Assembly (NCBI GenBank): GCA_037478855.1
Contig: JBBFLY010000005.1
Location: forward strand, 206-64,205
Length of the DNA stretch: 64,000 nucleotides
DNA from: Acidimicrobiales bacterium
GTDB taxonomy: Bacteria; Actinomycetota; Acidimicrobiia; Acidimicrobiales; Acidimicrobilacustridaceae
Direction: 5' to 3'
A program made the position numbers and the translations under genes. Shown one piece after another: positions 894 to 61,211 of this stretch. Position 1 is the first letter of the stretch, and every line of letters begins with the position of its first letter. The notes beneath the pieces were generated by a model. That model had not been told where the DNA came from. It did no database searches and saw only the letters and a list, made by a program, of their open reading frames with translations.

Positions 894-966
894 CGCTCGC
901 CCCTCTCCCGTCCCGTCTCTCCCGTCGCGTCGGTCTCAGACCGGCCGTGGCGGCACGACCGCATAT

Positions 967-986
967 CCCTGACACAGATGTCAGGT
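967..986. promoter_or_regulatory. Palindromic operator box 1: ccc TGACA caga TGTCA ggt
   Basis: Lies between the divergent starts of the FGGY kinase (893, -) and the PaaK-like ligase (1008, +). A TACGCT -10-like hexamer sits at about 993-998, just before the GTG start. Confidence 0.7.
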
Positions 987-1007
987 TCGAGAGTACGCTA
1001 GAGGGCC

Positions 1008-7661: not shown

Positions 7662-7693
7662 GTCGCCCCCCCTCTCTCGCTGCTGGCGAGAAT

Positions 7694-7713
7694 ACCTGAC
7701 ACAGACGTCAGAT
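7694..7713. promoter_or_regulatory. Palindromic operator box 2: acc TGACA caga CGTCA gat
   Basis: Lies 33 bp upstream of the aldolase start (7661, -), between it and the stop of the upstream ACAD gene. Confidence 0.7.
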
Positions 7714-7751
7714 TCAGGCGGATGGGGGGTGCTGCCCGCCAGCCCCGGCGC

Positions 7752-8903: not shown

Positions 8904-8917
8904 CGCCTGCGATCCTA

Positions 8918-8937
8918 ACCTGACATGGACGTCAGCT
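8918..8937. promoter_or_regulatory. Palindromic operator box 3: acc TGACA tgga CGTCA gct
   Basis: Lies 15 bp upstream of the ACAD start at 8903 (-). The TAACCT left flank could double as a -10 on the opposite strand. Confidence 0.7.
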
Positions 8938-9241
8938 CCGGCGGGTGAGGCGACCCTGGAGTTCGTCATGGACCTCGACAACACCAACCTCCAGCGAGGC
9001 CCCCATCCACACCGGTGGACCCCTACACGCCCCTCATCCCACGATCACGCGCAGCATCCAGGATCGCGGGCAGCGTCCGGAGACGAGCGGGGCTCTGAAC
9101 TCGTAGGGGGATCCGCGGGGAGCGGCACGGGGGCTCTGAGAATGCGACCGAACAGGTCGGGAGACTCGGCCACACCGGGTCCGGCTCAGGGTCCGTCGCT
9201 GCCGGCGGTCGGATCGTCTGCATGTCTATGCAGGTGGAACA

Positions 9242-9287: not shown

Positions 9288-9518
9288 ATGCGTACGACGG
9301 TGACGTTCGATGACGACACCGCCCGAGCGGTCGAGCAGCTGCGCCGCGAGCGGGGGGTCGGGGTGTCGGAAGCGGTCAACGAGCTCATCCGCCGCGGCCT
9401 CGTGCAGCGTCCGCAACGGGCGGCGTTTCGTCAGCAGACACGCCGGCTGGGGCTCACCATCGACGTGTCGAACGTGGCCGAGGCGCTCGAGGTGCTCGAA
9501 GGGCCCCGGTCGCGCTGA
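9288..9518 (+). CDS. vapB: Type II antitoxin, ribbon-helix-helix (VapB/CopG-like)
   Basis: 76 aa, MRTTVTFDDDTARAVEQLRRERGVGVSEAVNELIRRGL, a typical RHH N-terminus. The stop overlaps the start of the PIN gene (TGATG). Confidence 0.8.
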   Translation: MRTTVTFDDDTARAVEQLRRERGVGVSEAVNELIRRGLVQRPQRAAFRQQTRRLGLTIDVSNVAEALEVLEGPRSR

Positions 9519-9946
9519 TGCTGGTCGACGCCAACATCCTCATCTACGCCGTCGACGAAGACAGCCCGTTCCACGAGCCCGCACGCCGGTGGTTGGAGAC
9601 GGTGCTCAACGGCTCAAGGCGTGTCGGTCTGCCATGGGTGTCGCTCACCGCGTTCGTGCGCATCGTCACGCATCCCCGCGCCGTGCGGGAGCCGCTGGGT
9701 CCCGCCGACGCTTGGTCGCTGGTCGAGGCCTGGCTCGACGCGCCGGTCAGCTGGATCCCGTCCCCCGGGCCTGGTCATCAGGAGATCCTGGGCCGGCTCC
9801 TCACCACGCTGGATCTTCGCGGGAACCTGGTGGCCGACGCGGCGCTCGCAGCACTCTGCATCGAGCACGGGCTGGAGATGGTGAGCGCCGACAGCGACTT
9901 CGCCCGGTTCAGCGAGGTCTCCTGGCTCAACCCGGTCGCCCGCTAG
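9518..9946 (+). CDS. vapC: PIN-domain ribonuclease toxin (VapC)
   Basis: 142 aa, MLVDANILIYAV...NLVADAALAALCIEHGLEMVSADSDFARF. The conserved acidic residues are in the expected PIN positions, and the gene is translationally coupled to the upstream RHH gene. Confidence 0.85.
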   Translation: MLVDANILIYAVDEDSPFHEPARRWLETVLNGSRRVGLPWVSLTAFVRIVTHPRAVREPLGPADAWSLVEAWLDAPVSWIPSPGPGHQEILGRLLTTLDLRGNLVADAALAALCIEHGLEMVSADSDFARFSEVSWLNPVAR

Positions 9947-10162: not shown

Positions 10163-11353
10163 TCAGCTGACCTCGATCACCGTGGCCGCACCCATCCCAC
10201 CACCGGCGCACAGGGACGCCACGCCGTAGCCCCCACCGCGTCGGCGCAGCTCGTGCACCAGCGTCACGAGGATGCGAGCCCCCGAACAGGCGACTGGATG
10301 CCCCAGCGCGACCGCCCCACCGTTCACGTTGACGATCGACGGGTCGATGTCGAGCACCTTGATCGTCCCGACGGTCATCGACGCGAACGCCTCGTTGATC
10401 TCGAACAGGGAGATGTCGCCGATCGAGAGCCCCGCGCGCTGCACCGCACGGGGGATCGCAATGGTCGGGGCCAGCCCGGTGTCCGCAGGCGGCACACCCA
10501 CCGCGCACCACGCACGAACGATCCCGAGCACCTCGAGGCCGTTGGCTCGGGCGTAGTCGCCATCGGCCAAGACGAGAGCCGCCGATCCGTCGTTCAGCGA
10601 CGAGGAGTTGCCCGCCGTGATGGTGCCATCGGGGAGCCCGGACAGCACTCGCAGCGACGCCAGCTTCTCGAGCGAGGTCGACCGCCGGGGGTGCTCGTCG
10701 GTTTCGAACGTCCTCAGCTCACCTCCCCACGACACGACCTCCATCGGCACGATCTCCTCGGCGAAGCGGCCGTCGTCGATGGCGGCGATCGCTTTCACGT
10801 GCGATCCGTACGACCACTCGTCCTGCTCCTCGCGGGACACCCCCACCTTGCGGGCGGTGTTCTCCCCCACGGTGATCATCATGTTCATGTTGGGTGCTTC
10901 CGGGCTGTCGGGGTGGCTCGGCGACAGCCACTGCTCGGGGATGCCGTACGGAACCGGCGACTTGCGATACGTCACCGGCGCCTGGGTCATCGACTCCACG
11001 CCACCGGCGATCACGACCTTGTCCATCCCGGCCCGGATGTTCGCCGCGCCGATCGTCACCGCGGTCATCCCCGTGGCGCACTGCCGGTTCACCGCCAGCC
11101 CCGGTGTGTCCGGTGGGAGACCGAGATCGTTGGCCAGGTACCGGGCGATGCACCCGCCCCCCTGGAGCACCTCGCCCAGGATCAGGTCGTCGACCTCCTC
11201 CGCGGGCACGCCGGAGCGCTTGAGCGCCTCCGACACCGACGCCTTGCCGATGTCGTAGATCGAGGTGTTGGCCAGCGCACCCTTGTACGCGTCGGCGATC
11301 GGTGTGCGGACAGCGGAGACGATGACGGCTTCACCCATGTCCGCCATTCTCAT
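10163..11353 (-). CDS. Acetyl-CoA C-acyltransferase (thiolase)
   Basis: 396 aa. It has AVNRQCATGMTAV (nucleophile Cys) and the C-terminal CAGGGMGAATVIEVS. The start could equally be 11346 or 11338 (MADMGEAVIV). Confidence 0.85.
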   Translation of the reverse strand: MRMADMGEAVIVSAVRTPIADAYKGALANTSIYDIGKASVSEALKRSGVPAEEVDDLILGEVLQGGGCIARYLANDLGLPPDTPGLAVNRQCATGMTAVTIGAANIRAGMDKVVIAGGVESMTQAPVTYRKSPVPYGIPEQWLSPSHPDSPEAPNMNMMITVGENTARKVGVSREEQDEWSYGSHVKAIAAIDDGRFAEEIVPMEVVSWGGELRTFETDEHPRRSTSLEKLASLRVLSGLPDGTITAGNSSSLNDGSAALVLADGDYARANGLEVLGIVRAWCAVGVPPADTGLAPTIAIPRAVQRAGLSIGDISLFEINEAFASMTVGTIKVLDIDPSIVNVNGGAVALGHPVACSGARILVTLVHELRRRGGGYGVASLCAGGGMGAATVIEVS

Positions 11354-11373
11354 TCCTGACGTTCATGTCAGCA
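11354..11373. promoter_or_regulatory. Palindromic operator box 4: tcc TGACG ttca TGTCA gca
   Basis: Fills the 11-bp gap between the longest thiolase ORF (-) and the SDR ORF (+). The SDR track ATG (11365) lies inside the box, and an alternative ATG lies at 11383. Confidence 0.7.
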
Positions 11374-12276
11374 ACCGCCACTATGCTGCCGACCGTGGGA
11401 GCACTGGCAGGCAAGAGCGCCATCGTCACCGGATCGGGCCGAGGTATCGGTCGCGCCGAGGCGCTGGCCCTGGCCGCGGAGGGTGCCGCGGTCATCGTCA
11501 ACGACGTCGACGCCGACCAGGCTGCCGCCGTCGCCGAGCAGATCAAGGCCGCAGGAGGTCGGGCCTCGGTGAGCGCGGACGACGTGTCGACCTGGGCTGG
11601 GGCCGAAGCCGTGGTGCAGCAGGCCATCGATGAGCACGGCCGGCTCGACATCCTCGTCAACAACGCCGGCATCCTGCGCGACGCCATGAGCTTCAGCATG
11701 AGCGAGGCCGACTGGGACGACGTCATCCGGGTCCATCTCAAGGGCCACTTCGCGCCCTCCCACTTCGCCGGCGCGCACTGGCGGAACCGGGCTAAAGCCG
11801 GCGGGGAGCCCGTCTCCGGACGGATCATCAACACCGCGAGCGAATCGGGGCTCTACGGCCTCGCGGGCCAGGTGAACTACGCCACCGCCAAGGCCGGCAT
11901 CGCGGCGATGACGATCGTGCTCGCCCGTGAGCTGAACAAGTACGGGGTCACGGTGAACGCGATCGCGCCACGGGCCCGCACCCGCATGACCGAGACGGTC
12001 CTGGTGGGCCTCGAGCCCGAAGAGGGCCGCTTCGACGAGTGGGATCCGGCCAACATCGCCCCGGTGGTCACCTGGCTGGCCTCCGACGACGCCGCCGATG
12101 TCACCGGGCAGGTGTTCGTCGTGTTCGCCAACCGCCTCCACCTGATGGACGGCTGGGATCTGTTCAGCACGATCGAGACCGAGGGACGCTGGACGCTCGA
12201 CGAGCTGCGCGCCCGCAAGGCTGAGCTGTTCGGTGACCGCCCTCCGGGCCTGCCCCGCGTGGGCTTCGGGTCATGA
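11365..12276 (+). CDS. Short-chain dehydrogenase/reductase, MFE-2/Hsd4A-N-terminal-like (probable 3-hydroxyacyl-CoA dehydrogenase)
   Basis: 303 aa with GKSAIVTGSGRGIGRAEALALAAEGAAVIVND, NNAGILRD and YATAKAG. It is a paralogue of 39318..40250. The real start may be 11383 (MLPTVGALAGK). Confidence 0.8.
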   Translation: MSATATMLPTVGALAGKSAIVTGSGRGIGRAEALALAAEGAAVIVNDVDADQAAAVAEQIKAAGGRASVSADDVSTWAGAEAVVQQAIDEHGRLDILVNNAGILRDAMSFSMSEADWDDVIRVHLKGHFAPSHFAGAHWRNRAKAGGEPVSGRIINTASESGLYGLAGQVNYATAKAGIAAMTIVLARELNKYGVTVNAIAPRARTRMTETVLVGLEPEEGRFDEWDPANIAPVVTWLASDDAADVTGQVFVVFANRLHLMDGWDLFSTIETEGRWTLDELRARKAELFGDRPPGLPRVGFGS

Positions 12277-13213: not shown

Positions 13214-13237
13214 GAGGCCATTCAAGCCGCCCCAGAA

Positions 13238-13257
13238 CCCTGACGTCTACGTCAGAG
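13238..13257. promoter_or_regulatory. Palindromic operator box 5: ccc TGACG tcta CGTCA gag
   Basis: Centred in the 63-bp divergent region between the hydrolase (-) and the acyl-CoA ligase (+, ATG 13277). Confidence 0.7.
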
Positions 13258-13276
13258 ATCGTGGCAAGCTGGCCCC

Positions 13277-18684: not shown

Positions 18685-18758
18685 GGGGCGACTCTAGAAC
18701 GGCCACCTCGGCGCACCGACAACAGCGCGTGAGCGGCTGCCGTCGCGGCTTGCCAGAA

Positions 18759-18778
18759 ACCTGACGTCGATGTCATGG
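18759..18778. promoter_or_regulatory. Palindromic operator box 6: acc TGACG tcga TGTCA tgg
   Basis: Lies in the divergent region between the SDR (start 18684, -) and the LplA-like gene. The track ATG 18775 lies inside the box, and TAGGTT follows immediately. Confidence 0.7.
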
Positions 18779-19920
18779 TAGGTTCGCCACTGGTGAGCGG
18801 CACACCTGACGCACAGACCTGGCGGTACCTCGACCTGGGTCGACAGGGCCCCTCTGAGAATGCGTCGTTGATGCCGGTGCTGGCCCGCTCGGTAGCGGAG
18901 GGATCCCGGCCGATCGCGCAGACGAGCGTCTGGGGCAGCACCCATCTCAACGTGGGCTGGTTCGACGACGTCGACGCGACCCTCGACCTCGAGCGCTGCC
19001 GGGAGCTCGGCGTTGAGGTCATCCGCCGCCAGCTCTACGGCGGTGGCACGGCGTTCTACGCCGCGGAGTGCGCGGCGATGTGGGGCTTCCTGCTGCCGAA
19101 GGACCCGAACGTGAAGGCCGATCTCGACGCCCTGCTCAGCCGATTCCAACCGGTGCTGCTCGATGCGCTGGACCGCCTCGGGCTCGGCGAGGTGCAGTTC
19201 GAGGGTTCCAGCGACCTGCGCTGGCGGGGCCGCAAGCTGGGTGCGCTCACCGCGCAAGACGTGATGGTGTGCACCTCCGTCGGCGGCTTCCTGAACCTGG
19301 CCAAGCCCGACATCGAGCTGTACCTGCAGGTGGTGCGCATCCCCGATGAGAAGTTCAAGGACAAAGCGGTCAAGGACATGCGGGAGTACGTGTGCACGGC
19401 CGAGGAGGTCTCGGGGCGCGCCGTCACCTACGAGGACTTCCGCGACGCGCTGCTCGCCGCGCTCACCGCAGCGGGGATCACCCTCGAGCCCAGCGATCTC
19501 ACCGAGGGCGAGCGGTACGGCCTGTCGAAGATCTCCGCGCGGGTGGGCAGTGACGAGGCCGTCCGACGGATCTCCTCGAACCGTTTCCGTGGATCCGCCC
19601 CCGCAGGCAGCCGGGTGGGCTTCGGCAACCACAAGGGTCGCAAGCTCTGCCGCGCCGGGGTGGCGATCGGCCCCCGGGGTGTGATCGTCGACGCGATGAT
19701 GGCCGGGGACATGCACGTCTCCCCTGGCGACGTGCTGGACCGGATCGCGTCCTCGCTCCTCGGTGCCCGCTCGGACGACGAGGCGGATCTTCGCGCACGC
19801 ATCGCCTCGGTTTTCGAAGCTGACGACGTCCACCAGGCCGACGCGGCGATGGGGGTGACCACCGACGATCTGCTCGCCGCCGTGCGCAAGGCCATCGAGG
19901 ACGCCAGGGCGGACCGGTGA
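18775..19920 (+). CDS. Lipoate-protein ligase A (LplA/BPL_LplA_LipB) family protein
   Basis: 381 aa. RRQLYGGGTAFYAAE corresponds to the RRxSGGGAV(F/Y)HD motif. GRKLGALTAQ corresponds to the lysine-containing (D/G)RK(V/I)SGSA motif. A C-terminal accessory domain is present. The start may be the GTG at about 18796. Confidence 0.55.
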   Translation: MVGSPLVSGTPDAQTWRYLDLGRQGPSENASLMPVLARSVAEGSRPIAQTSVWGSTHLNVGWFDDVDATLDLERCRELGVEVIRRQLYGGGTAFYAAECAAMWGFLLPKDPNVKADLDALLSRFQPVLLDALDRLGLGEVQFEGSSDLRWRGRKLGALTAQDVMVCTSVGGFLNLAKPDIELYLQVVRIPDEKFKDKAVKDMREYVCTAEEVSGRAVTYEDFRDALLAALTAAGITLEPSDLTEGERYGLSKISARVGSDEAVRRISSNRFRGSAPAGSRVGFGNHKGRKLCRAGVAIGPRGVIVDAMMAGDMHVSPGDVLDRIASSLLGARSDDEADLRARIASVFEADDVHQADAAMGVTTDDLLAAVRKAIEDARADR

Positions 19921-22918: not shown

Positions 22919-24004
22919 TCAGATCACTCGTCCGCCGGACTCGATCCGCTCTCGCAGCAGTGAGGCCAGCCGCCGCCGGTGGAAGACCGCGTCGCCGAAC
23001 GCCCGCTCATCGAGCTGCGAGCGCTTGAGGAACAGGTGCACATCGGACTCCCACGTGAAGCCGATGCCCCCGTGCACCTGCAGGGTCGACGCAGTGACCC
23101 GGCGGGCCGCGTCGGAGCACCACGTCTTGGCAGTCGACGCGGCGATCGACCGGTCCGGGTCGTCGGCTGCCACGCACCACGCCGCGTAGTACACGCAGGA
23201 TCGCATCCCCTCCACGTCGACCAGCATGTCCGCGCAGCGGTGCTTCACCGCCTGGAAGGAGCCGATCGGGCGGCCGAACTGCTCCCGCTGCTTGGCGTAG
23301 GCGACGGCGAGATCGAGCGAGCGCGCGGCGATGCCCAGCAGCTCGGCCGCATACGCCGTGGCCCCGAGGTCGCCGAAGCGCTCCAGCGCATCGGCACCCC
23401 CGATGCGCAGCGCGGGCGTCCGATCGAAGACCAACCACCCCACCTCGCGTGTCCGGTCCATCGCCGGCTCAGCGGTCGGTCGCACACCGTCGCGGAGATC
23501 GACTGCGAACACCGCGTCCGGCGAACGCACGACCGCCACATCAGCCGACGGCGCGTACACCGCAGGCTCGGCGCGACCGGTCAGCACCCACCCGTCGCCC
23601 GCCGGCTCCGCAGCGACCGGCGACCACGCAATGGTGGCGATCGACGCTCCGCTGACGAGCGGCTGGATCCACTCCGGCGCCGCCTCCGACAGCATCGCGA
23701 GGGCGACGATCTGCTGGAGCACGGGCGCTGGTGCCACGTGGGCACCGACCTGTTCGAGCAGCACCGCGACCTCGACGAACCCGAGGCCGAGCCCGCCGAG
23801 CGCCTCGGGGAGGGCAACGGCGGTCCAGCCCTGCTCGACCATCGCCGCCCACAGCTCGGGGTCGTACCCGCCACCGGCGTCGACGACCGCCCGCACCCTG
23901 GTCGACGACGCGTAGCCGCCGAGCAGCTCGCGGGCCGCGTCGCGCAACGCGAGCTGCTCGTCCGAGAGCTCGAAGTCCACCACCAGACGATACCTGACGC
24001 TCAT
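22919..24004 (-). CDS. Acyl-CoA dehydrogenase family protein, short type (candidate non-catalytic partner subunit)
   Basis: Within track ORF 22919..24682. The sequence runs ...VVDFELSDEQLALRDAARELL...FQAVKHRCADM...QVHGGIGFTWESDVHLFLKRSQ. ATG 24004 lies inside operator box 7, and GTG 23980/23983 (V)DFELSDEQ is the more typical ACAD start. Confidence 0.75.
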   Translation of the reverse strand: MSVRYRLVVDFELSDEQLALRDAARELLGGYASSTRVRAVVDAGGGYDPELWAAMVEQGWTAVALPEALGGLGLGFVEVAVLLEQVGAHVAPAPVLQQIVALAMLSEAAPEWIQPLVSGASIATIAWSPVAAEPAGDGWVLTGRAEPAVYAPSADVAVVRSPDAVFAVDLRDGVRPTAEPAMDRTREVGWLVFDRTPALRIGGADALERFGDLGATAYAAELLGIAARSLDLAVAYAKQREQFGRPIGSFQAVKHRCADMLVDVEGMRSCVYYAAWCVAADDPDRSIAASTAKTWCSDAARRVTASTLQVHGGIGFTWESDVHLFLKRSQLDERAFGDAVFHRRRLASLLRERIESGGRVI

Positions 24005-24011
24005 GTCAGCC
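23992..24011. promoter_or_regulatory. Palindromic operator box 7: acc TGACG ctca TGTCA gcc
   Basis: Lies in the divergent region between the short ACAD (-) and the long ACAD (+, ATG 24044). Confidence 0.7.
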
Positions 24012-24043
24012 CCGGGGTGGACGGGTCTAGGATTGCTCCGCCT

Positions 24044-28879: not shown

Positions 28880-28938
28880 GGGTGGCGACCTCACGGGTGG
28901 GCGGTGTGGCGGTCTCGCGTGCCGCGGGCGACGGAGAA

Positions 28939-28958
28939 ACCTGACACGGATGTTAGTT
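28939..28958. promoter_or_regulatory. Palindromic operator box 8: acc TGACA cgga TGTTA gtt (one core mismatch)
   Basis: Lies in the divergent region between the short ACAD (start 28879, -) and the long ACAD (ATG 28967, +), ending 9 bp before the latter. Confidence 0.6.
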
Positions 28959-28966
28959 TTCTCGGT

Positions 28967-31381: not shown

Positions 31382-31408
31382 GCGCGCAGCGTAGCGAAGG
31401 CCGCTGCT

Positions 31409-31428
31409 AACTGACATGAGCGTCAGGT
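31409..31428. promoter_or_regulatory. Palindromic operator box 9: aac TGACA tgag CGTCA ggt, followed by an extra half-site (aaGGTCAGG)
   Basis: Lies in the 58-bp divergent region between the thiolase (31381, -) and the ADP-forming acyl-CoA synthetase (31440, +). Confidence 0.7.
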
Positions 31429-31439
31429 AAGGTCAGGCC

Positions 31440-37749: not shown

Positions 37750-37768
37750 GAGCCGAACCTCCCCAGAT

Positions 37769-37788
37769 GGCTGACACCCATGTCAGCA
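37769..37788. promoter_or_regulatory. Palindromic operator box 10a: ggc TGACA ccca TGTCA gca
   Basis: Starts 20 bp upstream of the amidohydrolase start (37749, -). It is the first of two boxes separated by 2 bp. Confidence 0.7.
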
Positions 37789-37790
37789 AA

Positions 37791-37810
37791 ACCTGACATC
37801 AGCGTCAACT
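37791..37810. promoter_or_regulatory. Palindromic operator box 10b: acc TGACA tcag CGTCA act
   Basis: Tandem with box 10a, inside the operon between the SDR stop (37913) and the amidohydrolase start. Confidence 0.7.
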
Positions 37811-37912
37811 TCCTGACCGCGCCCACAGGCCTTCCAGCTGCTGCCGGCGTGGACGGGCGCTCACCGCACCCGGACACCTCGCTGACCGGAGCGCGTGCCG
37901 ACCGGGAGACGG

Positions 37913-39200: not shown

Positions 39201-39260
39201 CGCGTGCGGTCCTCCGTTCTGGTGCGGCACGACAGGCCGTGACGCTAAGGTCTTGGCCAA

Positions 39261-39280
39261 ACGTGACGCTGATGTCAGGT
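39261..39280. promoter_or_regulatory. Palindromic operator box 11: acg TGACG ctga TGTCA ggt
   Basis: Lies in the divergent region between the MaoC hydratase operon (-) and the SDR/crotonase operon (+, ATG 39318). Confidence 0.7.
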
Positions 39281-39317
39281 TTCTCTGCATTCAAGCACAC
39301 CAGCAGGGGGGACACGA

Positions 39318-41146: not shown

Positions 41147-41830
41147 TCATGCTGCGGGGTGGAAGAACCCCCGCTGCGCGATGCGAGCGAGCGTGTCGGC
41201 CAGCTCATCGTCGCCGAAGGGAAGGTCGCGGGAGGTCACGAAGTAGGTGGAGCGCTCGATCATCGCGAGCAGTGCAGCTCCGGCCAGCTCGAGATCGGGC
41301 TGGTCACCTCGGACCTCGCGCAGACGTGTGACCAGCGAGCCGGTGATCTCCGTGAACGCCTTGGCGCCAAGCCGGGCCAGGTCGCGACTGGTCACCTGAT
41401 CCTCCATCCAGGCCCGGATCACCACCCCGTAGCGGCGGTAGGTGGCGATGAAGGCCGACAGCCACTCCCGCAGCACCTCCACGCCGGGCTCACCCGGTGG
41501 AACCGGGCTGAGCGACGAGGCCAGGTCGGTCATCTCCTCCGCACACTGCACGGCGAGCGCCCGGAACAGATCCTCCTTGTTGGAGAAGTACAGGTAGAAG
41601 GTGCCGTGGGAGACCTTCGCCACGCGCACCACATCGTCGACACGGGCCGCGTGATACCCCTTCTCGGCCAGCACCTGCATGCCGGCCGCGAGCAGTGCGG
41701 CCATCGTGCGCCGACCCTGGCTGCGCAGCTCCCTCCCGGCCGTGGGCGAGCCGGACGCCCCGCCACCACGGCGGACACGGACCTGCTCGGTTCCCGAGTT
41801 GCCGCTTCGCGCCATGGCCACCTCCTGCAA
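41147..41830 (-). CDS. TetR-family transcriptional regulator (paralogue A)
   Basis: 227 aa with an Arg-rich N-terminal tail, then the HTH region GYHAARVDDVVRVAKVSHGTFYLYFSNKEDLF. It is collinear with 59085..59768. Confidence 0.85.
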   Translation of the reverse strand: MQEVAMARSGNSGTEQVRVRRGGGASGSPTAGRELRSQGRRTMAALLAAGMQVLAEKGYHAARVDDVVRVAKVSHGTFYLYFSNKEDLFRALAVQCAEEMTDLASSLSPVPPGEPGVEVLREWLSAFIATYRRYGVVIRAWMEDQVTSRDLARLGAKAFTEITGSLVTRLREVRGDQPDLELAGAALLAMIERSTYFVTSRDLPFGDDELADTLARIAQRGFFHPAA

Positions 41831-41844
41831 CGACGCCCGGTGCG

Positions 41845-43371
41845 ATGCTCGGACCCGTCGTAGACGAGGCCGCCGAACGGTTCGGCGATCGTACCGCCTA
41901 CGTCTCAGCGGGCGGTGAGACCGTCAGCTACGCCGACTTCCGAGATCGCACGCAGCGGGCGGCCCACTGGTTGCACGAGCAGGGTGTGCAGGCCGGTGAT
42001 GTCGTCGCCCTCGTGCTGCCCGCGACCGTCGAGTACCTCGCGCTCTACGTGGGTGCGGCCCGCATCGGCGCCGTCACCGCAGGCGTGAACTGGCGCCTGA
42101 CCCCGCACGAGCAGCAGGCGCTGATCGAGCTCGTGGATCCCATGCTGACGGTACGGCCGGCCGACGTGCCGGACCTGACCACCGAGCTCCCACCCACTCC
42201 CCTCCCGCGGTCCGCTGCCGCCGACGCCCCCGGATCGAACACCCCGGTGGCGATCGTGTTCACCTCGGGCACCACCGGGCGGCCGAAGGCCGCGGTCTTC
42301 GGCATCCGGCAGCTCGAGGTCATCACCCGGATCGACACCGGCGGCCGCTGGGGAGGCGGTGGTGGGCAGCTGGCTGGCATGTCCTTCGCGTCGCTCGGAC
42401 CGATGACGAAGCTGCCCGGCAACCTCATGCGTGGCGGAACCACCTACCTGGTCGACCGCTGGCACGCCCGCCTCGCGCTCGAGCTGACGGAGCGCCACCA
42501 GCTGACGACCATCGCGGGGATCCCCACCCAGGTCGCCCTCATGCTGGCCGACCCCGAGCTCGGCCGCTTCGACCACTCATCCGTCCGGGCCGTCGTCATG
42601 GGTGGTGGTCCCGCGACGCCGGCGCTGGTGCGCGACGCGCGCACCCGCTTCAACGCCCCGGTAGCCATCCGCTACTCCTGCACCGAGGCCGGCATCGGGC
42701 TCGGCACCGCCCTCGACGCACCCAACGAGGATGCGGAGATCAGCGTCGGACGGCCGCACCCGGGGCTCGAGCTGGCGATCCGCGACGAGGCTCTCGAACC
42801 GGTTCCATCCGGCGCGGTCGGCGAGGTGTGCCTGCGCTCCGGAGCCACCATGAGCGGCTACTGGAACGACCCGGCCGGAACCGCCCAGGCCTTCACCCCG
42901 GATGGGTTCGTCCGCACCGGCGACCTGGGCTGGATCGATGACCAGGGTCGGCTGCGCCTCGCCGGCCGCCGCAAGGAGCTCTACGTCCGGGGCGGCTACA
43001 ACGTCTACCCGGTCGAGGTGGAGGCGGTGCTGGCGGAGCACCCAGCGGTGGCCGAGGTGGCGGTGGTGCCACGCCCCGACCCCGTCATGGGGGAGATCGG
43101 GGTGGCGGCGGTAGTGGTCCGCCCCGGATCACCACCTCCCACGCTCGCCGAGCTGCGCAGCTTCGCCGCGGACCGCCTGGCCCACCACAAGCTCCCCGAG
43201 CGGCTGGTGGCGCTCGACGCCCTCCCCCTCACGCCAGCGGAGAAGGTCGACCGTCGGGCGCTCGCCGACCTCGTCGCGGCGCTCGCGGACGACGGCGACG
43301 AAGCCGGCGGGCAGGCCCGCGCTACGCGGCCTTCCAGGCCCAGCCGAGGAACGGGCTCGTCGTCGCCTTGA
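41845..43371 (+). CDS. AMP-dependent acyl-CoA synthetase/ligase
   Basis: Within track ORF 41695..43371. The start is MLGPVVDEAAERFGDRTAY (ATG 41845, in frame). It has IVFTSGTTGRPKAAVF, TGDLGWIDDQGRLRLAGRRKELYVRGGYNV and the C-terminal KLPERLVALDALPLTPAEKVDR. Confidence 0.85.
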   Translation: MLGPVVDEAAERFGDRTAYVSAGGETVSYADFRDRTQRAAHWLHEQGVQAGDVVALVLPATVEYLALYVGAARIGAVTAGVNWRLTPHEQQALIELVDPMLTVRPADVPDLTTELPPTPLPRSAAADAPGSNTPVAIVFTSGTTGRPKAAVFGIRQLEVITRIDTGGRWGGGGGQLAGMSFASLGPMTKLPGNLMRGGTTYLVDRWHARLALELTERHQLTTIAGIPTQVALMLADPELGRFDHSSVRAVVMGGGPATPALVRDARTRFNAPVAIRYSCTEAGIGLGTALDAPNEDAEISVGRPHPGLELAIRDEALEPVPSGAVGEVCLRSGATMSGYWNDPAGTAQAFTPDGFVRTGDLGWIDDQGRLRLAGRRKELYVRGGYNVYPVEVEAVLAEHPAVAEVAVVPRPDPVMGEIGVAAVVVRPGSPPPTLAELRSFAADRLAHHKLPERLVALDALPLTPAEKVDRRALADLVAALADDGDEAGGQARATRPSRPSRGTGSSSP

Positions 43372-48024: not shown

Positions 48025-48050
48025 CGCGGCAGTATCGCAGATCAACCTGA

Positions 48051-48070
48051 ACATGACAGTAGCGTCAGGT
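48051..48070. promoter_or_regulatory. Palindromic operator box 12: aca TGACA gtag CGTCA ggt, with an extra AACCTGA half-site just upstream (48044-48050)
   Basis: Lies in the 63-bp divergent region between the etfBA start (48024, -) and the 2-hydroxyacid dehydrogenase start (GTG 48082/48088, +). Confidence 0.65.
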
Positions 48071-48087
48071 TCTGCGAGGCTGTGGGC

Positions 48088-51712: not shown

Positions 51713-51767
51713 GGGAAGAGACCTCCTCGATCGCCCGGAGGACGCCCCCGGGCCCGGTGTTAGACTT

Positions 51768-51787
51768 TTATGACACGAACGTCAGCT
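51768..51787. promoter_or_regulatory. Palindromic operator box 13: tta TGACA cgaa CGTCA gct
   Basis: Lies in the divergent region between the PqqC-like gene (51712, -) and hyuB-like (ATG 51862, +). Confidence 0.65.
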
Positions 51788-51861
51788 TCGTGGCAAGCTT
51801 CGCAGGTCAGGGGTCGGGCACGGGCGACGGCCCGGTGCCCCGAACCAGGGGGGAGCCGCAG

Positions 51862-57233: not shown

Positions 57234-59000
57234 TCAGAGGTCCCAGAACCGTTCCCGACCAGCGCGCACGAACCGCTCGTGCAGCTCCCGTTCGTCGCGC
57301 TGGGTGAAGGGACGGTAGCGGTCCTCGCCGCGACCCCGGATGAGCAGCAGGTCGTCACCGACCCGATCGTGCCGGAACTTCTCGTGCACCAGGCTGCGCT
57401 TGAGGATCTTGTTGGTGCCGGTGGTGGGAAGCTCTCTCGCCACCCGCAGGTAGCGCGGACGCCACTTGGGGCCGATGTCGTCGAGGGAGTCCAGCCATCC
57501 GGCGAAGGCCGCGCCGTCGAGCGTCGCGCCCTCCCGTAGCACCAACGCCGCCATGACCTGGTCGCCCGCCTGCTCGTCGGGCACCCCGTACACGCAGGCC
57601 ACGACGACATCGGGGTGACGGCTCAGCGCGGCCTCGATGGGAGCGGCGGGGAAGTTCTCGCCGTCGACCCGGATCCAGTCCGTGTTGCGACCAGCGAAGT
57701 ACACGTTGCGGTCCTCGTCCATGTAGCCGAGGTCACCGCTCCAGTACCAGCCCCGTCGGGTGGTGGTCGCGGTCGCCTCAGGGTTGTTGTAGTACCCCTC
57801 GAACGGCCCGGCTCCGGCGGTGCTCACGATCTCCCCGATGCACTCCTCGGCGTTCAGCAGACGACCCTGCTCGTCGAAGCGGGCGGGTGGCAGCTCGTTG
57901 CCCTCCTCGTCGACGATCCTGATGTGCGCTGGTGCGATGCCCATCGCCCCGGGCTTGACCGGCCCGTCACGGTTGAGGCTGATCCCACCCTCGGTGGCCC
58001 CGAAGGCGTCGATGACCTCGTCGACCCCGAAGCGTCGACGGAAGGCCTCGACGACCTCGGATGATCCTTCGTTGCCGAACGCGATGCGCAACGTGTTCTC
58101 CGCGTCGTCGGGCCGCTCGGGGGTGGCTACCAGGTAGGACAGGGGCTTGCCGGTGTAGTTGAAGTAGGTGGCCCGGTACCGGCGGACGTCCTCGAGCCAC
58201 CCCGACGCGGTGAACCTGCGGGCCAGCCCCACCGCGCAGCCGTACACGAGCGACGGCATCCAACCGACCATCACCGCGTTGGAGTGGAACAGCGGCATGC
58301 TCACGTAGCCCACGTCGTCCGGCCCGAGGCCGAGCAGCAGCCCGAGGCGGGTCCCGGTGACCAGCAGACGCCGCTGGCTGCAGATCACCGCCTTGGGGGC
58401 GGACGACGTCCCGGAGGTGAAGATGAGCGCCCAGGTCGTCGCCGGGTCGGGCTGCGCACCGTCGTCGATCGCCTCAAACCTCTCGAGTGCGTCGTCGAGG
58501 TCGACTCCGACCGTCGGGGCGCGCTCGGCCGGGGAAGCGAAGCGTGAGGACACCAGGATGCGGTCGGGCCCGAACGGCAGGTCGCCGAGGAGAGGTTCGA
58601 TCCGGGGCAGGTGCGCTGGCTCGGTCACGAGCATCGCCACGTCGGTGTGGAGCATGTCGCGCAGCAGGTGCTCCCCCTGGCGGGTGTGGTTCAGGCCGAC
58701 GACGGCCGCGCCGGCGAACGCCGCGCCGCCGAAGGCGAAGAGGTAGTCGGGCGTGTTGTCAAGCAGGACCGCCACGTGCGGTGGACGCCCCTGTGGCAGC
58801 CACGCCCGCAGCAGACCGGCCCAGCGGAGGGACTCGTCGACGAACTGGGCGTGGGTCCAGACCTGCTCTCCGAAGAGCACCGCGGGGCGGGTTGCGATCC
58901 CGGGATCATGCCGGTTGCGGCGCAGCAGGGCGGCGGCGTTCTCCGCAGGCGGCACGGCCTGACCCGGCTCGGGGATCGATCGGGACGGGGAAGCCGGCAC
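57234..59000 (-). CDS. Long-chain-type AMP-dependent acyl-CoA synthetase
   Basis: Track ORF 57234..59063 reads through operator box 14. In-frame GTG 59000 or TTG 59009 are more plausible starts. It has LIFTSGTSSAPKAVICS and WYWSGDLGYMDEDRNVYFAGRNTDWIRVDGENF. Confidence 0.8.
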   Translation of the reverse strand: MPASPSRSIPEPGQAVPPAENAAALLRRNRHDPGIATRPAVLFGEQVWTHAQFVDESLRWAGLLRAWLPQGRPPHVAVLLDNTPDYLFAFGGAAFAGAAVVGLNHTRQGEHLLRDMLHTDVAMLVTEPAHLPRIEPLLGDLPFGPDRILVSSRFASPAERAPTVGVDLDDALERFEAIDDGAQPDPATTWALIFTSGTSSAPKAVICSQRRLLVTGTRLGLLLGLGPDDVGYVSMPLFHSNAVMVGWMPSLVYGCAVGLARRFTASGWLEDVRRYRATYFNYTGKPLSYLVATPERPDDAENTLRIAFGNEGSSEVVEAFRRRFGVDEVIDAFGATEGGISLNRDGPVKPGAMGIAPAHIRIVDEEGNELPPARFDEQGRLLNAEECIGEIVSTAGAGPFEGYYNNPEATATTTRRGWYWSGDLGYMDEDRNVYFAGRNTDWIRVDGENFPAAPIEAALSRHPDVVVACVYGVPDEQAGDQVMAALVLREGATLDGAAFAGWLDSLDDIGPKWRPRYLRVARELPTTGTNKILKRSLVHEKFRHDRVGDDLLLIRGRGEDRYRPFTQRDERELHERFVRAGRERFWDL

Positions 59001-59011
59001 GGTCGACAATT

Positions 59012-59031
59012 CTATGACACTGATGTCAGAT
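59012..59031. promoter_or_regulatory. Palindromic operator box 14: cta TGACA ctga TGTCA gat
   Basis: Lies immediately upstream of the fadD-like/ACAD operon (-). It is the first of two boxes in the 85-bp region shared with the divergent TetR gene. Confidence 0.7.
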
Positions 59032-59045
59032 CTGGCCGGCCCGCA

Positions 59046-59065
59046 GCCTGACACCTCCGTCACGT
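59046..59065. promoter_or_regulatory. Palindromic operator box 15: gcc TGACA cctc CGTCA cgt
   Basis: Ends 20 bp upstream of the GTG start (59085) of TetR paralogue B. Confidence 0.65.
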
Positions 59066-59084
59066 TCCTTTAGCCTCGTGGGCC

Positions 59085-59768
59085 GTGCCAACCCGCAAGA
59101 AGGCCGCCGCCACCACCCGAGCCGCCAGCCCGACCCGCGAGGGTGATGCACCGCCCGTACCTGGTCGCGCCGGCGCGCCGGCCCAACGCCGGGAGCTGCG
59201 CGCCCGCGGCAAGCGAACCATGCGCAAGCTCCTCGACGCGGGCATCCAGGTCTTCGCCCGTCGGGGCTACCACGCGGCCCGAGTCGACGACATCGTGAAG
59301 GCCGCGAGGACCAGTCACGGCACCTTCTACCTCTACTTCGCCAACAAGGAGGACCTCTTCCAGGCACTGGTGGCCGATGTCGCGGAGGAGCTCGCCGCCC
59401 TGCGCGACTCGCTCGGCCCGGTCACGCCCGACGACGCCGGTCTGGCGAAGCTGCGGGCATGGCTCGACCGGTTCGCCGCGATGTATGAGCACTACGGTCC
59501 GATCATCCGGACCTGGACCGAAGCCGAGGTCGGCACGAGCGATGTCGGGCGGCTCGGAACCGACGTGATCGGTGAGCTGGCCGGCGCACTGACGGAGGCG
59601 ACCACCGGCGGGGCAGCTGAGCTCGACCCCACCATCGCGTCGATGGCCCTGATCGCGATGGTCGAGCGGCTCAACTACTTCGTGCTCTCCGGGCAGATCG
59701 ACGCGAACCGCGACCAGATGGTGGACACGCTCGCCGGCGTCGTGCACCGGGTGCTGTTCACCCCCTGA
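59085..59768 (+). CDS. TetR-family transcriptional regulator (paralogue B), candidate regulator of the palindromic boxes
   Basis: 227 aa with an Arg/Ala-rich N-terminal tail, then GYHAARVDDIVKAARTSHGTFYLYFANKEDLF. Two boxes lie in its own upstream region. Confidence 0.85.
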   Translation: MPTRKKAAATTRAASPTREGDAPPVPGRAGAPAQRRELRARGKRTMRKLLDAGIQVFARRGYHAARVDDIVKAARTSHGTFYLYFANKEDLFQALVADVAEELAALRDSLGPVTPDDAGLAKLRAWLDRFAAMYEHYGPIIRTWTEAEVGTSDVGRLGTDVIGELAGALTEATTGGAAELDPTIASMALIAMVERLNYFVLSGQIDANRDQMVDTLAGVVHRVLFTP

Positions 59769-59811
59769 CCACACGCAGGGAGACGTCACCACCCACCGGG
59801 GGACGACCGGT

Positions 59812-59831
59812 TGCTGACACAAACGTCAGAT
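59812..59831. promoter_or_regulatory. Palindromic operator box 16: tgc TGACA caaa CGTCA gat
   Basis: Ends 61 bp upstream of the ABC substrate-binding protein ATG (59892). Confidence 0.7.
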
Positions 59832-59891
59832 TTGGCGACTACTGTGTGGGTCCCAGGGGGCAGAGCACGGCCCGACTGGGGGAGGTCGCCG

Positions 59892-61211
59892 ATGTCCAAG
59901 CGGATCGCCACGCTGGTCGCACTCCTCGCGCTCCTCGCAGCCGCGTGCGGGAACGCGGGGACCGACTCGAACGCCACGGGAGGCGGCGGGAACGCCCCGA
60001 CCGGCACCGCCACGGCGACGGACCTGACCAGGAAGGTACCGGTCGACCAACCCGGGGTGACCGACACCGAGATCCGCGTCGGCGGCGTGGTCTCGAAGAC
60101 CAACCCGCTCGGTGGGAACTACGACGACGCCTTCGACGGGGTCCGGGCGTACTTCGAGATGATCAACGCACAGGGCGGCATCTACGGACGCCGGCTCGTG
60201 CTCGCCGCCGAGCGGGACGACCAGGTGGTGAACAACCAGCAGGAGGTGCAGGCGCTCATCTCGCAGGACAAGGTCTTCGCGATCTTGCCGGTGGCCACCC
60301 TGCTGTTCACCGGAGCCGACCTCGCGGCGACCTCCGGCACGCCGACCTTCGGGTGGACGATCAACCCAGAGTGGGCCGGTCCGCCCAACCTGTTCGGCGA
60401 CCGTGGCGGCGAGCTGTGCTTCGACTGCCCGACGCCGGTCGTCCCTTGGCTGGCCAAGGACGCCGGCGCGAAGAAGGTCGCGGTGCTCGCCTACAACGTC
60501 CCCCAGTCCAAGAGGTGTGCCGAGGGCATCATCGCCTCGTTCCGGAGGTGGCCGACCGCCGAGGTGGCCTTCCAGGACCTCGCCCTGAGCTACGGGGTCA
60601 CCGACTTCAGCGTACAGGTCGGCAAGATGAAGCAGGCCGGCGTCGAGCTCGTCACCACCTGCATGGACCTCAACGGGGTGACGAACCTCGCCCGGGAGCT
60701 CGACAAGCAACAGCTCTCCGCCGTGCAGTACATGCCCAACGCGTACGACCACGACTTCGCGAAGCGGTTCGCCGACCTCGTCGAGGGCTCGCTCGTGCTG
60801 ACCTGGTTCGCGCCGTTCGAGGTACCGGACCCACCTGAGGGGACGAAGCGGTACTTCGAGTGGATCGACCGGACCGGGGGGACGCGCAGCGAGCTGTCGA
60901 TGTCCGGCTGGCTCGCCGCCGACCTCTTCTACCGGGGCCTGGTGGCAGCCGGACCGGAGTTCACCCAGCAGAAGGTGATCGACGCCATCAACACCTTCGA
61001 CAACTGGACCGCGGATGGCTCGATCCCCGGTGTGGACTGGACGATCGCGCACAAGCAGCGCCCGCCGCTCTCCTGCGGCGCCATCTCGAGGATCGACAAC
61101 GGTGGGTTCGTACCCCTCTACGGCGAAGCGGGCAGGCCCTTCATCTGCTTCGACGTCGAGGCCGATCAGCTCCCGGACCGGCCCGAGCCCACCGCGGGGG
61201 CGACGCGCTAG
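59892..61211 (+). CDS. ABC-transporter substrate-binding lipoprotein, LivJ/Peripla_BP_6 type
   Basis: Within track ORF 59811..61211. ATG 59892 is preceded by GGGGGAGG. Sequence: MSKRIATLVALLALLAAACG (lipobox), then GVTDTEIRVGGVVSKTNPLGGNY... Confidence 0.8.
   Translation: MSKRIATLVALLALLAAACGNAGTDSNATGGGGNAPTGTATATDLTRKVPVDQPGVTDTEIRVGGVVSKTNPLGGNYDDAFDGVRAYFEMINAQGGIYGRRLVLAAERDDQVVNNQQEVQALISQDKVFAILPVATLLFTGADLAATSGTPTFGWTINPEWAGPPNLFGDRGGELCFDCPTPVVPWLAKDAGAKKVAVLAYNVPQSKRCAEGIIASFRRWPTAEVAFQDLALSYGVTDFSVQVGKMKQAGVELVTTCMDLNGVTNLARELDKQQLSAVQYMPNAYDHDFAKRFADLVEGSLVLTWFAPFEVPDPPEGTKRYFEWIDRTGGTRSELSMSGWLAADLFYRGLVAAGPEFTQQKVIDAINTFDNWTADGSIPGVDWTIAHKQRPPLSCGAISRIDNGGFVPLYGEAGRPFICFDVEADQLPDRPEPTAGATR

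What the first reader, a model, noticed from the sequence alone, without database searches (positions are those of the whole stretch)
59012..59768. TetR paralogue B carries two boxes in its own upstream region while paralogue A (41147-41830) has none
The 85-bp region between the fadD-like operon and the TetR gene at 59085 holds boxes 14 and 15, 14 bp apart. That is the classic layout of an autoregulated TetR repressor with a divergent target operon. A third box follows its stop (59812), in front of the Liv-type importer. The second TetR (41147-41830) is clearly paralogous, with a near-identical HTH (GYHAARVDD(V/I)V..A..SHGTFYLYF.NKEDLF), but I see no box in the 14-bp gap to its divergent acyl-CoA ligase. 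Two similar DNA-reading heads with only one wired into the motif suggests a master regulator plus a diverged local one, or ligand-specific partitioning of one operator set.
Basis: inference. Interest (0 to 1): 0.6.

Follow-up and report, generated by a model that had tools for sequence, protein, structure and literature searches.

The report
Autoregulated TetR repressor and box-less paralogue
One of two sister TetR regulators in an uncultured Acidimicrobiia bacterium sits between copies of the palindrome that marks about two dozen fat-breakdown promoters, and is very probably their self-controlled repressor; its sister, with almost the same DNA-reading residues, never carries the palindrome. 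This is an ordinary kind of circuit in a little-studied group.

Summary
The box is a 24-bp palindrome, AAACCTGACAYnnRTGTCAGGTTT. Its core occurs 18 times in the window against 1 expected. A matrix scan finds about 24 sites genome-wide, 17 of them in this window.

TetR B (59085-59768) has two boxes upstream and one after its stop. TetR A (41147-41815) is 49% identical to B. The best box score within 650 bp of its start is below the genome median, so it has no degenerate copy either.

In a tree of 125 relatives from Acidimicrobiia, 42 of 60 B-clade genes have a box within 300 nt upstream, against 0 of 49 A-clade genes. In 301 genomes, 66 of 68 holders of this TetR family are box-rich, against 4 of 233 non-holders. 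Box-rich genomes with B alone exist. The best-assembled A-only case looks like an assembly gap.

No other regulator gene adjoins a box in this genome. Box 15 supplies the -35 of a leaderless B promoter.

Best reading: B is a FadR/KstR-style autoregulated global repressor, and A is a local regulator of its divergent acyl-CoA ligase. All conserved DNA-contact positions are the same in A and B, so a shared operator set is not excluded. New member of a known kind; moderate interest.

The parts
59085..59768 (+). TetR paralogue B (227 aa): proposed box-binding, autoregulated repressor
   Evidence: PF00440 TetR_N 63.3 bits against a cut-off of 24. Orthologues at 61-82% identity in 13 relatives carry the same box layout. 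It belongs to the B clade of the tree.
59010..59033 (.). Box 14 (core 59015-59028), strong operator over the fadD-like promoter
   Evidence: Matrix score 27.0. A TAGAAT -10-like hexamer (59009-59014, minus strand) abuts the core and lies 8 nt before the GTG at 59000.
59044..59067 (.). Box 15 (core 59049-59062), weak proximal operator over the -35 of the B promoter
   Evidence: Matrix score 17.7. A weak proximal site recurs at -22 to -34 in G001, G002, G003, G023 and G025.
59071..59076 (+). Putative -10 hexamer TAGCCT of the B promoter. The layout is CTGACA (59048-59053), 17 nt, TAGCCT, 8 nt, GTG, which implies a leaderless mRNA.
   Evidence: Read from the sequence. The same string is conserved in the two genus-mates. 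Inference; no transcript data.
59810..59833 (.). Box 16 (core 59815-59828), operator in front of the Liv-type importer
   Evidence: Matrix score 30.3. A box followed by TAnnnT in front of the binding-protein gene is seen in eight orthologous loci, this one included. The TACTGT hexamer here is at 59840-59845.
57234..59000 (-). FadD-like acyl-CoA ligase, divergent from B
   Evidence: AMP-binding domains. The best NCBIfam hits are CasI, FadD1 and FadD17, all below their cut-offs.
59892..61211 (+). Liv-type periplasmic binding protein, first gene of the importer downstream of B
   Evidence: PF13458, 136 bits.
41147..41815 (-). TetR paralogue A (222 aa from the ATG at 41815): no box; proposed local regulator
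   Evidence: PF00440, 59.1 bits. 49% identical to B. It belongs to the A clade, where 0 of 49 genes have a box. No degenerate box nearby.
41845..43371 (+). Acyl-CoA ligase divergent from A. This pairing is seen in nearly all 29 A-type loci from other Acidimicrobiia.
   Evidence: AMP-binding domains. A conserved ligase N-terminus lies opposite A in the A-type loci.
41888..41893 (-). Putative -10 (TACGAT on the minus strand) of the A promoter, inside the ligase ORF
   Evidence: A TAnnAT hexamer is kept by unusual synonymous codons (GAT-GCT or GAT-CGT) in A-type loci of many genomes. Inference.
965..988 (.). Regulon box
   Evidence: Score 30.8.
7692..7715 (.). Regulon box
   Evidence: Score 32.0.
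8916..8939 (.). Regulon box
   Evidence: Score 27.8.
11352..11375 (.). Regulon box
   Evidence: Score 29.2.
13236..13259 (.). Regulon box
   Evidence: Score 27.6.
18757..18780 (.). Regulon box
   Evidence: Score 30.2.
23990..24013 (.). Regulon box
   Evidence: Score 24.2.
28937..28960 (.). Regulon box variant with a GTTAG right half
   Evidence: Score 27.5. It is the only TGAC-N6-GTTAG site in the genome.
31407..31430 (.). Regulon box
   Evidence: Score 26.5.
37767..37790 (.). Regulon box
   Evidence: Score 25.3.
37789..37812 (.). Regulon box
   Evidence: Score 29.6.
39259..39282 (.). Regulon box
   Evidence: Score 31.6.
48049..48072 (.). Regulon box upstream of the ETF genes
   Evidence: Score 27.7. 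ETF domains.
51766..51789 (.). Regulon box
   Evidence: Score 27.0.

Best explanation
TetR B is the cognate repressor of the 24-bp palindrome AAACCTGACAYnnRTGTCAGGTTT. As a homodimer, or possibly a dimer of dimers, it sits on operators that overlap the -35 or -10 elements of about two dozen promoters of a CoA-thioester (beta-oxidation-like) catabolic regulon.

This includes three promoters at its own locus. Box 14 covers the fadD-like ligase promoter. Box 15 supplies the -35 of B's own leaderless promoter. Box 16 covers the Liv-type importer promoter. B therefore autoregulates negatively and is released by a pathway metabolite, most likely an acyl-CoA.

TetR A is an ancient paralogue, and both clades are spread across Acidimicrobiia. 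It is not wired to the box. It forms a separate two-gene unit with a divergent acyl-CoA ligase whose promoter overlaps its own, and it probably controls that ligase locally.

What is shown: the boxes, their excess over chance, their position at promoters, the paralogy, the conservation across the class, and the co-occurrence with this TetR family. What is inferred: that B binds the boxes, that it represses, the nature of the ligand, and the role of A.
For: (1) The motif is real and concentrated. The window has 18 core hits against 1.0 expected. The matrix scan puts 17 sites on this contig and 7 elsewhere, all promoter-proximal to acyl-CoA dehydrogenase, thiolase, hydratase, short-chain dehydrogenase and ligase genes.

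(2) Footprint at B. B orthologues in at least 10 related genomes keep box(es) upstream and one box after the stop. In the tree of Acidimicrobiia relatives, 42 of 60 B-clade genes have a box of score 14 or more within 300 nt upstream, against 0 of 49 A-clade genes (Fisher 4e-16; not corrected for relatedness).

(3) Co-occurrence. All 15 family or order relatives with A/B have 18-48 pattern hits. Of 301 class genomes, 66 of 68 holders have at least 6 hits, against 4 of 233 non-holders.

(4) B without A is enough. G073 (100% complete, 26 hits), G247 (54), G293 (31), G173 (18) and G208 (16) have B alone. Of the two A-only genomes, the better-assembled one, G096, breaks at a contig start about 3 kb from where B lies in its congener. 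The other, G285, is 86% complete.

(5) No other regulator gene adjoins any box in this 99%-complete genome.

(6) The recognition helix GTFYLYF matches GTIYLYF of Bacillus halodurans FadR. There, Gly42 and Tyr45 read an ATGA(A/G)T half-site (PMC5397183). That half-site shares its TGA core with CTGAC(A/G).

(7) Double-TetR relatives carry TGAC-N6-GTTAG at their own promoters, even in genomes otherwise poor in boxes.

(8) Promoter geometry. The B promoter reads CTGACA, 17 nt, TAGCCT, 8 nt, GTG. A TAnnnT hexamer lies within 0-11 nt of the core in 10 of 34 orientations, against 4% expected.
Against: G031 is 99% complete and has about 13 boxes, but no A or B. It has only a double TetR. G111, G028, G041, G035 and G005 are similar, although G005 (70% complete), G035 (66%) and G041 (73%) are incomplete assemblies.

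In the B clade, 18 of 60 genes lack an upstream box. G191 has a B-type gene but only 2 pattern hits.

A and B are identical at every conserved DNA-contact position. They differ only at R/Q in the N-terminal arm and K/R in helix 2. A could therefore bind the same boxes.

No operator for A was found.

Box 15 on its own scores no better than chance hits.
Confidence: 0.65

Rival explanations
1. A and B both bind the same boxes. This would be one operator set read by two repressors with different ligand-binding domains. B would be autoregulated, while A would be expressed from its own box-free promoter.
For: All conserved DNA-contact positions are identical in the two clades, including the FadR Gly42 and Tyr45 equivalents. 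Only R/Q in the arm and K/R in helix 2 differ. No A-specific operator could be found around the A/ligase junction. A always lies inside or near box-rich clusters; most A-type loci hold one or two boxes within 4 kb. Two genomes have A only and still carry boxes (G096, G285).
Against: B-only genomes keep large box sets, so A is dispensable. G096 looks like an assembly gap and G285 is 86% complete. The constant pairing of A with a box-free divergent ligase is the usual mark of a local TetR-target pair. The two clade-specific substitutions are strictly conserved, which suggests distinct DNA contacts.
Confidence: 0.2
2. A regulator other than A or B binds the boxes, either the double-TetR type or an unrelated factor. 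B would then be only a member of that regulon.
For: Some box-rich genomes have no A or B: G031 (99% complete), G111, G028 and G041. All of them encode a double TetR whose C-terminal half groups with the A+B clade in the tree.
Against: In this genome the only double TetR is distant (C13) and has no box nearby. No other regulator gene adjoins a box. Holders of A/B are box-rich in 66 of 68 genomes. Double-TetR genomes G004, G024 and G056 are box-poor. A perfect palindrome fits a homodimer better than an asymmetric double TetR; Mce3R binds a non-palindrome.
Confidence: 0.1
3. The boxes are not operators. They would be a dispersed repeat, or simply a shared promoter element whose CTGACA half resembles the -35 hexamer.
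For: The half-site CTGACA is 5 of 6 identical to TTGACA, and it sits at -35 distance from a TAnnnT hexamer at the B promoter.
Against: The dyad symmetry is strict. Distances to the -10 element vary between 0-3 nt and 8-11 nt. Presence of the box is tied to one TetR family rather than to the phylogeny of the sigma factor. Copies are not spreading; they occupy orthologous sites across genera.
Confidence: 0.04

Closest known systems
Bacillus FadR (YsiA), TetR-family acyl-CoA-responsive repressor (B. halodurans structures 5GP9, 5GPA, 5GPC)
   Same: Both are TetR-family proteins. The recognition helices are almost identical: GTIYLYFNNKED in FadR and GTFYLYFANKED in B. The base-contacting Gly and Tyr are conserved, and both half-sites contain TGA. 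Both have many operators in front of beta-oxidation genes and an operator at the regulator's own promoter. FadR is among the best PDB hits by sequence.
   Different: Only 52 residues of the DNA-binding domain align. The NCBIfam FadR model scores 50.8 bits against a cut-off of 200. The operator differs in sequence and spacing. B has a 45-residue basic N-terminal arm. The phylum differs.
KstR and KstR2 of Mycobacterium and Rhodococcus (TetR repressors of the cholesterol catabolic regulon)
   Same: The logic is the same: one autoregulated TetR repressor with dozens of palindromic operators across a large lipid or steroid-type catabolic gene cluster, plus a second TetR for a sub-pathway. This comparison rests on my own knowledge.
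   Different: The known motifs (TnnAACnnGTTnnA and AnCAAGnnCTTGnT, from memory) are unrelated to CTGAC-N6-GTCAG. No close sequence similarity was seen. KstR and KstR2 have different reading heads, whereas A and B have nearly the same one.
Mce3R of M. tuberculosis (double TetR, structure 9B7Y)
   Same: Relatives of A and B in other Acidimicrobiia are fused double TetRs of 420-510 aa with this architecture. They have an asymmetric-looking site at their own promoter. Mce3R is among the PDB hits.
   Different: A and B are single-domain proteins of 222-227 aa, and the box is a true palindrome. Mce3R binds a non-palindromic 25-bp site (PMC11667970).
SAV151 of Streptomyces avermitilis (TetR)
   Same: Its published operators, GAACTGACA-N8-TGTCAGTTC and TCTGACA...TGTCAGA, use the same CTGACA half-site (PMC10933834, Table 2).
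   Different: The half-sites are 4 bp further apart. It is a local regulator of adjacent genes. Its protein relationship to B was not tested.
Fad35R (Rv2506) type: a TetR divergent from a fadD ligase
   Same: The layout of paralogue A: a TetR gene back to back with an acyl-CoA ligase gene. This comparison rests on my own knowledge; the name appears in PMC11667970.
   Different: In the A-type loci the gap is only 1-30 bp, the two promoters lie inside each other's ORFs, and no operator is recognisable. Homology was not tested.

Membership tests
TetR family (Pfam PF00440) | N-terminal TetR-type helix-turn-helix domain above the gathering score | tested here: met
   B scores 63.3 bits and A 59.1 bits, against a cut-off of 24.
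TetR family (Pfam PF00440) | Size of about 200 aa with an all-helical C-terminal ligand or dimerisation domain | tested here: inconclusive
   Lengths are 227 and 222 aa. The full-length match to the TetR-type structure 2PZ9 has E 1.5e-10. No structure was predicted.
Autoregulated TetR repressor with adjacent targets | Palindromic operator within the regulator's own promoter, conserved in orthologues | tested here: met
   Boxes at -63 and -29 in this genome. 42 of 60 B-clade genes have a box upstream.
Autoregulated TetR repressor with adjacent targets | The protein binds that operator and is released by a ligand | not testable with these tools
   This needs gel-shift or ITC experiments with purified B.
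Bacillus-type FadR (NCBIfam NF053878) | Whole-protein score above the curated cut-off | tested here: not met
   50.8 bits (B) and 47.3 bits (A), against a cut-off of 200. Only the HTH aligns.
Mce3R-type double TetR | Two TetR modules in one polypeptide of about 400 aa | tested here: not met
   A and B are single modules. The doubles are separate genes in other genomes.
KstR or KstR2 | Published operator consensus and orthology to Rv3574 or Rv3557c | not tested
   No KstR sequence was compared. The motif recalled from memory differs from the box.

The most novel reading that the evidence does not exclude
A and B are two sensors that share one operator set. Their DNA-binding domains have been kept nearly identical since before the families of Acidimicrobiia diverged, and both occupy the same 24-bp boxes, as separate homodimers or as heterodimers. 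The regulon would then open only when two different metabolites are present. These might be the product of the A-linked gatekeeper ligase and a downstream CoA thioester.
Probability: 0.15. Interest if true: 0.6.

Novelty: new member of a known kind. Interest (0 to 1): 0.4.

Why it matters
The result gives a first, testable regulon map for lipid-type catabolism in Acidimicrobiia, a class known almost only from metagenomes. The map has one operator consensus, one candidate repressor, and 20-50 sites per genome in dozens of genera.

Listing the genes behind the boxes defines the pathway, and the repressor's ligand would point to the unknown substrate.

The A/B pair is also a clean natural case for asking how two TetR proteins with nearly the same reading head are kept on different targets, or are not.

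Tried and rejected
(1) Apparent inversion of the B gene in the genus-mate G001. This was an artefact. Loci returned by the genome search are in contig orientation and are not turned to the match.

(2) Degenerate box at A. None exists in this genome or in 29 A-type loci, where the highest score is 5.5.

(3) De novo dyad search upstream of A-type genes. The top dyad, CTGCGCGCGCAG, is just the coding sequence for ELRAQG. No operator emerged.

(4) Heterodimer idea, from sites with mixed TGACA and TGACG halves. In this genome 13 of 19 sites are mixed (p 0.08). Across other genomes 50 of 110 are mixed against 54.8 expected. Rejected.

(5) Mce3R as a model for the box. It binds a non-palindrome.

(6) Exact-sequence look-up of B in public assemblies found nothing.

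(7) A literature search for the motif returned mostly primer noise. The only useful hit was the SAV151 operators.

(8) A search for a truncated B at contig ends of the A-only genome G096. The box at C80:263 belongs to a thiolase/dehydrogenase pair. The synteny test then showed a contig break near the expected B site.

(10) The sigma-70 consensus scan found nothing in 58900-59950. The promoter calls rest on the looser actinobacterial TAnnnT pattern.

Full report
**What is at the locus**

The window is contig C5 (206-64205) of a 3.03-Mb, 70% G+C, 99%-complete assembly. A genus-mate is labelled Rhabdothermincola sp., and the other relatives are Acidimicrobiia or Acidimicrobiales MAGs.

Between a fadD-like ligase gene on the minus strand and the TetR gene at 59085-59768 lie two copies of a palindrome. 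Their cores are TGACACTGATGTCA (59015-59028) and TGACACCTCCGTCA (59049-59062). A third copy, TGACACAAACGTCA (59815-59828), follows the TetR stop codon and precedes a Liv-type binding-protein gene.

The core TGAC-N6-GTCA occurs 18 times in the window against 1.03 expected, and no shuffle out of 100 reaches that number. A symmetrised matrix built from 16 sites gives the consensus AAACCTGACAYnnRTGTCAGGTTT. It finds 17 sites on this contig, 4 on C50, and one each on C54, C14 and C13.

Boxes 14 and 16 are strong (27.0 and 30.3). Box 15 is the weakest site (17.7) and would not stand out on its own.

**The surroundings**

Pfam and NCBIfam scans of 49 ORFs in the window show a CoA-thioester catabolic cluster. 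It includes:
- acyl-CoA dehydrogenases, thiolases, enoyl-CoA hydratases and short-chain dehydrogenases;
- several AMP-forming ligases, a family III CoA-transferase and an ADP-forming ligase;
- three amidohydrolase_2 genes and two class II aldolases;
- MaoC-like, DUF35-like and SCP-x-like genes, and a hydantoinase A/B pair;
- ETF genes and the Liv-type importer.

The only regulator-type genes are the two TetRs, a VapB-like RHH antitoxin and a PAS-GGDEF-EAL protein. The seven boxes outside the window also lie in promoter-proximal gaps in front of the same kinds of enzymes. None of them is next to a regulator gene.

**The two TetRs**

B (227 aa) and A (222 aa from the ATG at 41815) are 49% identical over 202 residues. 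They are the only close pair in the genome.

Around A there is no box. The best matrix score between 41500 and 42150 is -5.8, below the genome-wide median of the best score per 650-bp window, which is -1.7.

**Comparative evidence in near relatives**

Among 60 relatives, 13 have a B orthologue (61-82% identity) together with an A orthologue. One more, G011, has diverged copies of both.

Loci from the genome search come in contig orientation. A first reading that suggested an inverted gene in one genus-mate was an artefact of this. After re-orienting the loci, B orthologues in at least 10 genomes carry box(es) upstream and one box after the stop. In G001, G002, G003, G023 and G025 the upstream arrangement is, as in this genome, a strong distal site plus a weak proximal one. 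A orthologues carry none within 1.5 kb. The two exceptions are boxes about 1 kb downstream.

**Comparative evidence across the class**

A scan of one genome per species gave 80 more loci from across Acidimicrobiia. A maximum-likelihood tree of 125 modules separates four groups:
- the N-terminal halves of fused double TetRs;
- the C-terminal halves of those double TetRs;
- an A clade of 49 genes;
- a B clade of 60 genes.

In the B clade, 42 of 60 genes have a box of score 14 or more within 300 nt upstream. In the A clade, none of 49 does. Fisher's test gives 4e-16, although the rows are not independent. Among 29 A-type upstream regions the highest score is 5.5 and the median is -3.5, which is the background level.

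**Co-occurrence of the box with the TetR family**

Counts of the pattern CTGACRYNNRYGTCA are 18-48 in all 15 near relatives that hold A/B, and 0-5 in most others. In an even sample of 301 Acidimicrobiia genomes, 68 hold the family. Of these, 66 have at least 6 hits, against 4 of 233 non-holders.

Genomes with one copy were typed with the A query.
- Several have B alone and still have many boxes: G073 (100% complete, 26 hits), G247 (54), G293 (31), G173 (18) and G208 (16). One further family has low pattern counts, yet its B genes are still flanked by boxes on the matrix scan.
- Two genomes appear to have A alone and still carry boxes. G285 is 86% complete. In G096, the region that flanks B in its congener G091 aligns at 88% identity starting 123 bases from a contig end. 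The 8 kb that should hold B are absent from the assembly.

A is therefore dispensable for keeping the boxes, and there is no solid case of boxes with A alone.

**Exceptions**

G031 is 99% complete and has about 13 boxes in front of orthologous enzymes, but no A or B. Its closest relative of the family is a double TetR. G111, G028, G041, G035 and G005 are similar, and the last three are 66-73% complete.

In G056, G041, G004 and G024 the double-TetR gene has TGAC-N6-GTTAG(A/T)TTA directly upstream of its reading frame. G031 has such a site about 830 nt upstream, next to the neighbouring amidohydrolase gene. G056, G004 and G024 have almost no other box. This suggests that the double TetR regulates itself through a box-like site and may replace B in some lineages. 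It also supports the idea that this branch of the TetR family reads TGAC half-sites.

**The reading head**

The best PDB matches by sequence include the acyl-CoA-responsive FadR proteins of Bacillus and Sulfolobus, and Mce3R. B aligns with B. halodurans FadR over the whole DNA-binding domain. The recognition helices are GTFYLYF and GTIYLYF.

In the FadR-DNA structure only Gly42 and Tyr45 touch bases, within an ATGA(A/G)T half-site. Gln29, Val30, Ala40, Thr43 and Tyr47 touch phosphates (PMC5397183). The box half-site CTGAC(A/G) shares the TGA core.

Every one of these positions is the same in the A and B clade consensus. The only clade-specific differences in the DNA-binding domain are LRARG (B) against LRAQG (A) in the N-terminal arm, and DDIVK (B) against DDiVR (A) in helix 2. 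The ligand-binding halves differ much more.

**Promoter geometry**

Upstream of B the sequence reads CTGACA (59048-59053), 17 nt, TAGCCT (59071-59076), 8 nt, GTG (59085). The left half of box 15 is thus a -35-like hexamer of a promoter that would give a leaderless mRNA. This string is conserved in the genus-mates.

On the other strand, TAGAAT abuts box 14 and lies 8 nt before the GTG at 59000, which I take as the ligase start. In front of the importer, box 16 is followed after 11 nt by TACTGT. A box followed by TAnnnT recurs in front of the binding-protein gene in eight orthologous loci, counting this one.

Over all 17 boxes, a TAnnnT hexamer lies 0-11 nt beyond the core in 10 of 34 orientations, against about 4% expected. 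The strict sigma-70 scan found nothing. These promoter assignments are therefore inferences from the looser actinobacterial pattern.

**Paralogue A**

In nearly all A-type loci the gene lies back to back with an acyl-CoA ligase gene. The gap is often a single base (CAT-c-GTG), and is 29 bp here.

TAnnAT hexamers are kept inside each ORF by codons that are unusual for a high-G+C genome: GAT-GCT or GAT-CGT in the ligase, and AGA-TCG-TAC in A. I read these as the two -10 elements of overlapping divergent promoters.

A dyad search found no operator. The pair has no box and is monocistronic on both sides here, so it is a separate unit embedded in the regulon cluster.

**Verdict**

The 'autoregulated master regulator B plus local regulator A' reading is well supported by footprinting and co-occurrence, but it is untested biochemically. 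The 'shared operator set' reading stays open, because the two reading heads are nearly identical.

A speculative link between the two: A gates a ligase whose CoA product, or a later intermediate, releases B.

The system works like FadR of Bacillus or KstR of mycobacteria, but it is not a member of either named family. The FadR model scores 50.8 bits against a cut-off of 200. I rate it a new member of a known kind, with moderate interest.

Noticed in passing
genome contigs C1:85774, C4:66582, C10:6062, C13:51551, C14:15606, C20:13764 and 41755, C44:5630, C51:170, C66:14767, C90:2227, C94:1226 and 3402 (none in the window): A second palindrome, CTTGAC(C/T)-N4-(G/A)GTCAAG, occurs about 13 times genome-wide. 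One copy lies directly upstream of another TetR gene (C1:85207-85746, 28% identical to B). It is probably the operator of a separate TetR regulon.
   Followed up: no
window 28937-28960: One box has a GTTAG right half (CTGACACGGATGTTAG), between two divergent acyl-CoA dehydrogenase genes. It is the only such site in the genome. The same variant, TGAC-N6-GTTAGATTA, lies directly upstream of the double-TetR reading frame in G056, G041, G004 and G024, and about 830 nt upstream of it in G031.
   Followed up: partly
L012 (G023:C2) and L013 (G025:C3): The B orthologues of two relatives split into two reading frames near residue 170-180. This could be a sequencing error or a pseudogene. It was not resolved.
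   Followed up: no
window 41815-41900 and A-type loci L114-L156: A and its divergent ligase are 1-30 bp apart. -10-like TAnnAT hexamers sit inside each other's ORFs and are kept by rare codons (AGA, GCT, GAT). The two mRNAs would therefore overlap antisense at their 5' ends.
   Followed up: partly
window 9300-9946: A VapB-like (RHH) and VapC-like (PIN) toxin-antitoxin pair is inserted in the middle of the catabolic cluster.
   Followed up: no
window 15238-17814: An 858-aa PAS-GGDEF-EAL protein is encoded inside the cluster. No box lies in the gap directly upstream of it; the nearest, at 18757-18780, lies beyond the next gene.
   Followed up: no
loci from the genome search (for example L002): Loci returned by the genome search are in contig orientation even when the match is on the minus strand. 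Read naively, this mimicked an inversion of the TetR gene between its boxes.
   Followed up: yes
G096:C64:1821-2063 (L180): A distant TetR (36% identical over 84 aa) lies downstream of a ligase gene that shares a box with a divergent ligase gene, in a genome where B is missing from the assembly.
   Followed up: no
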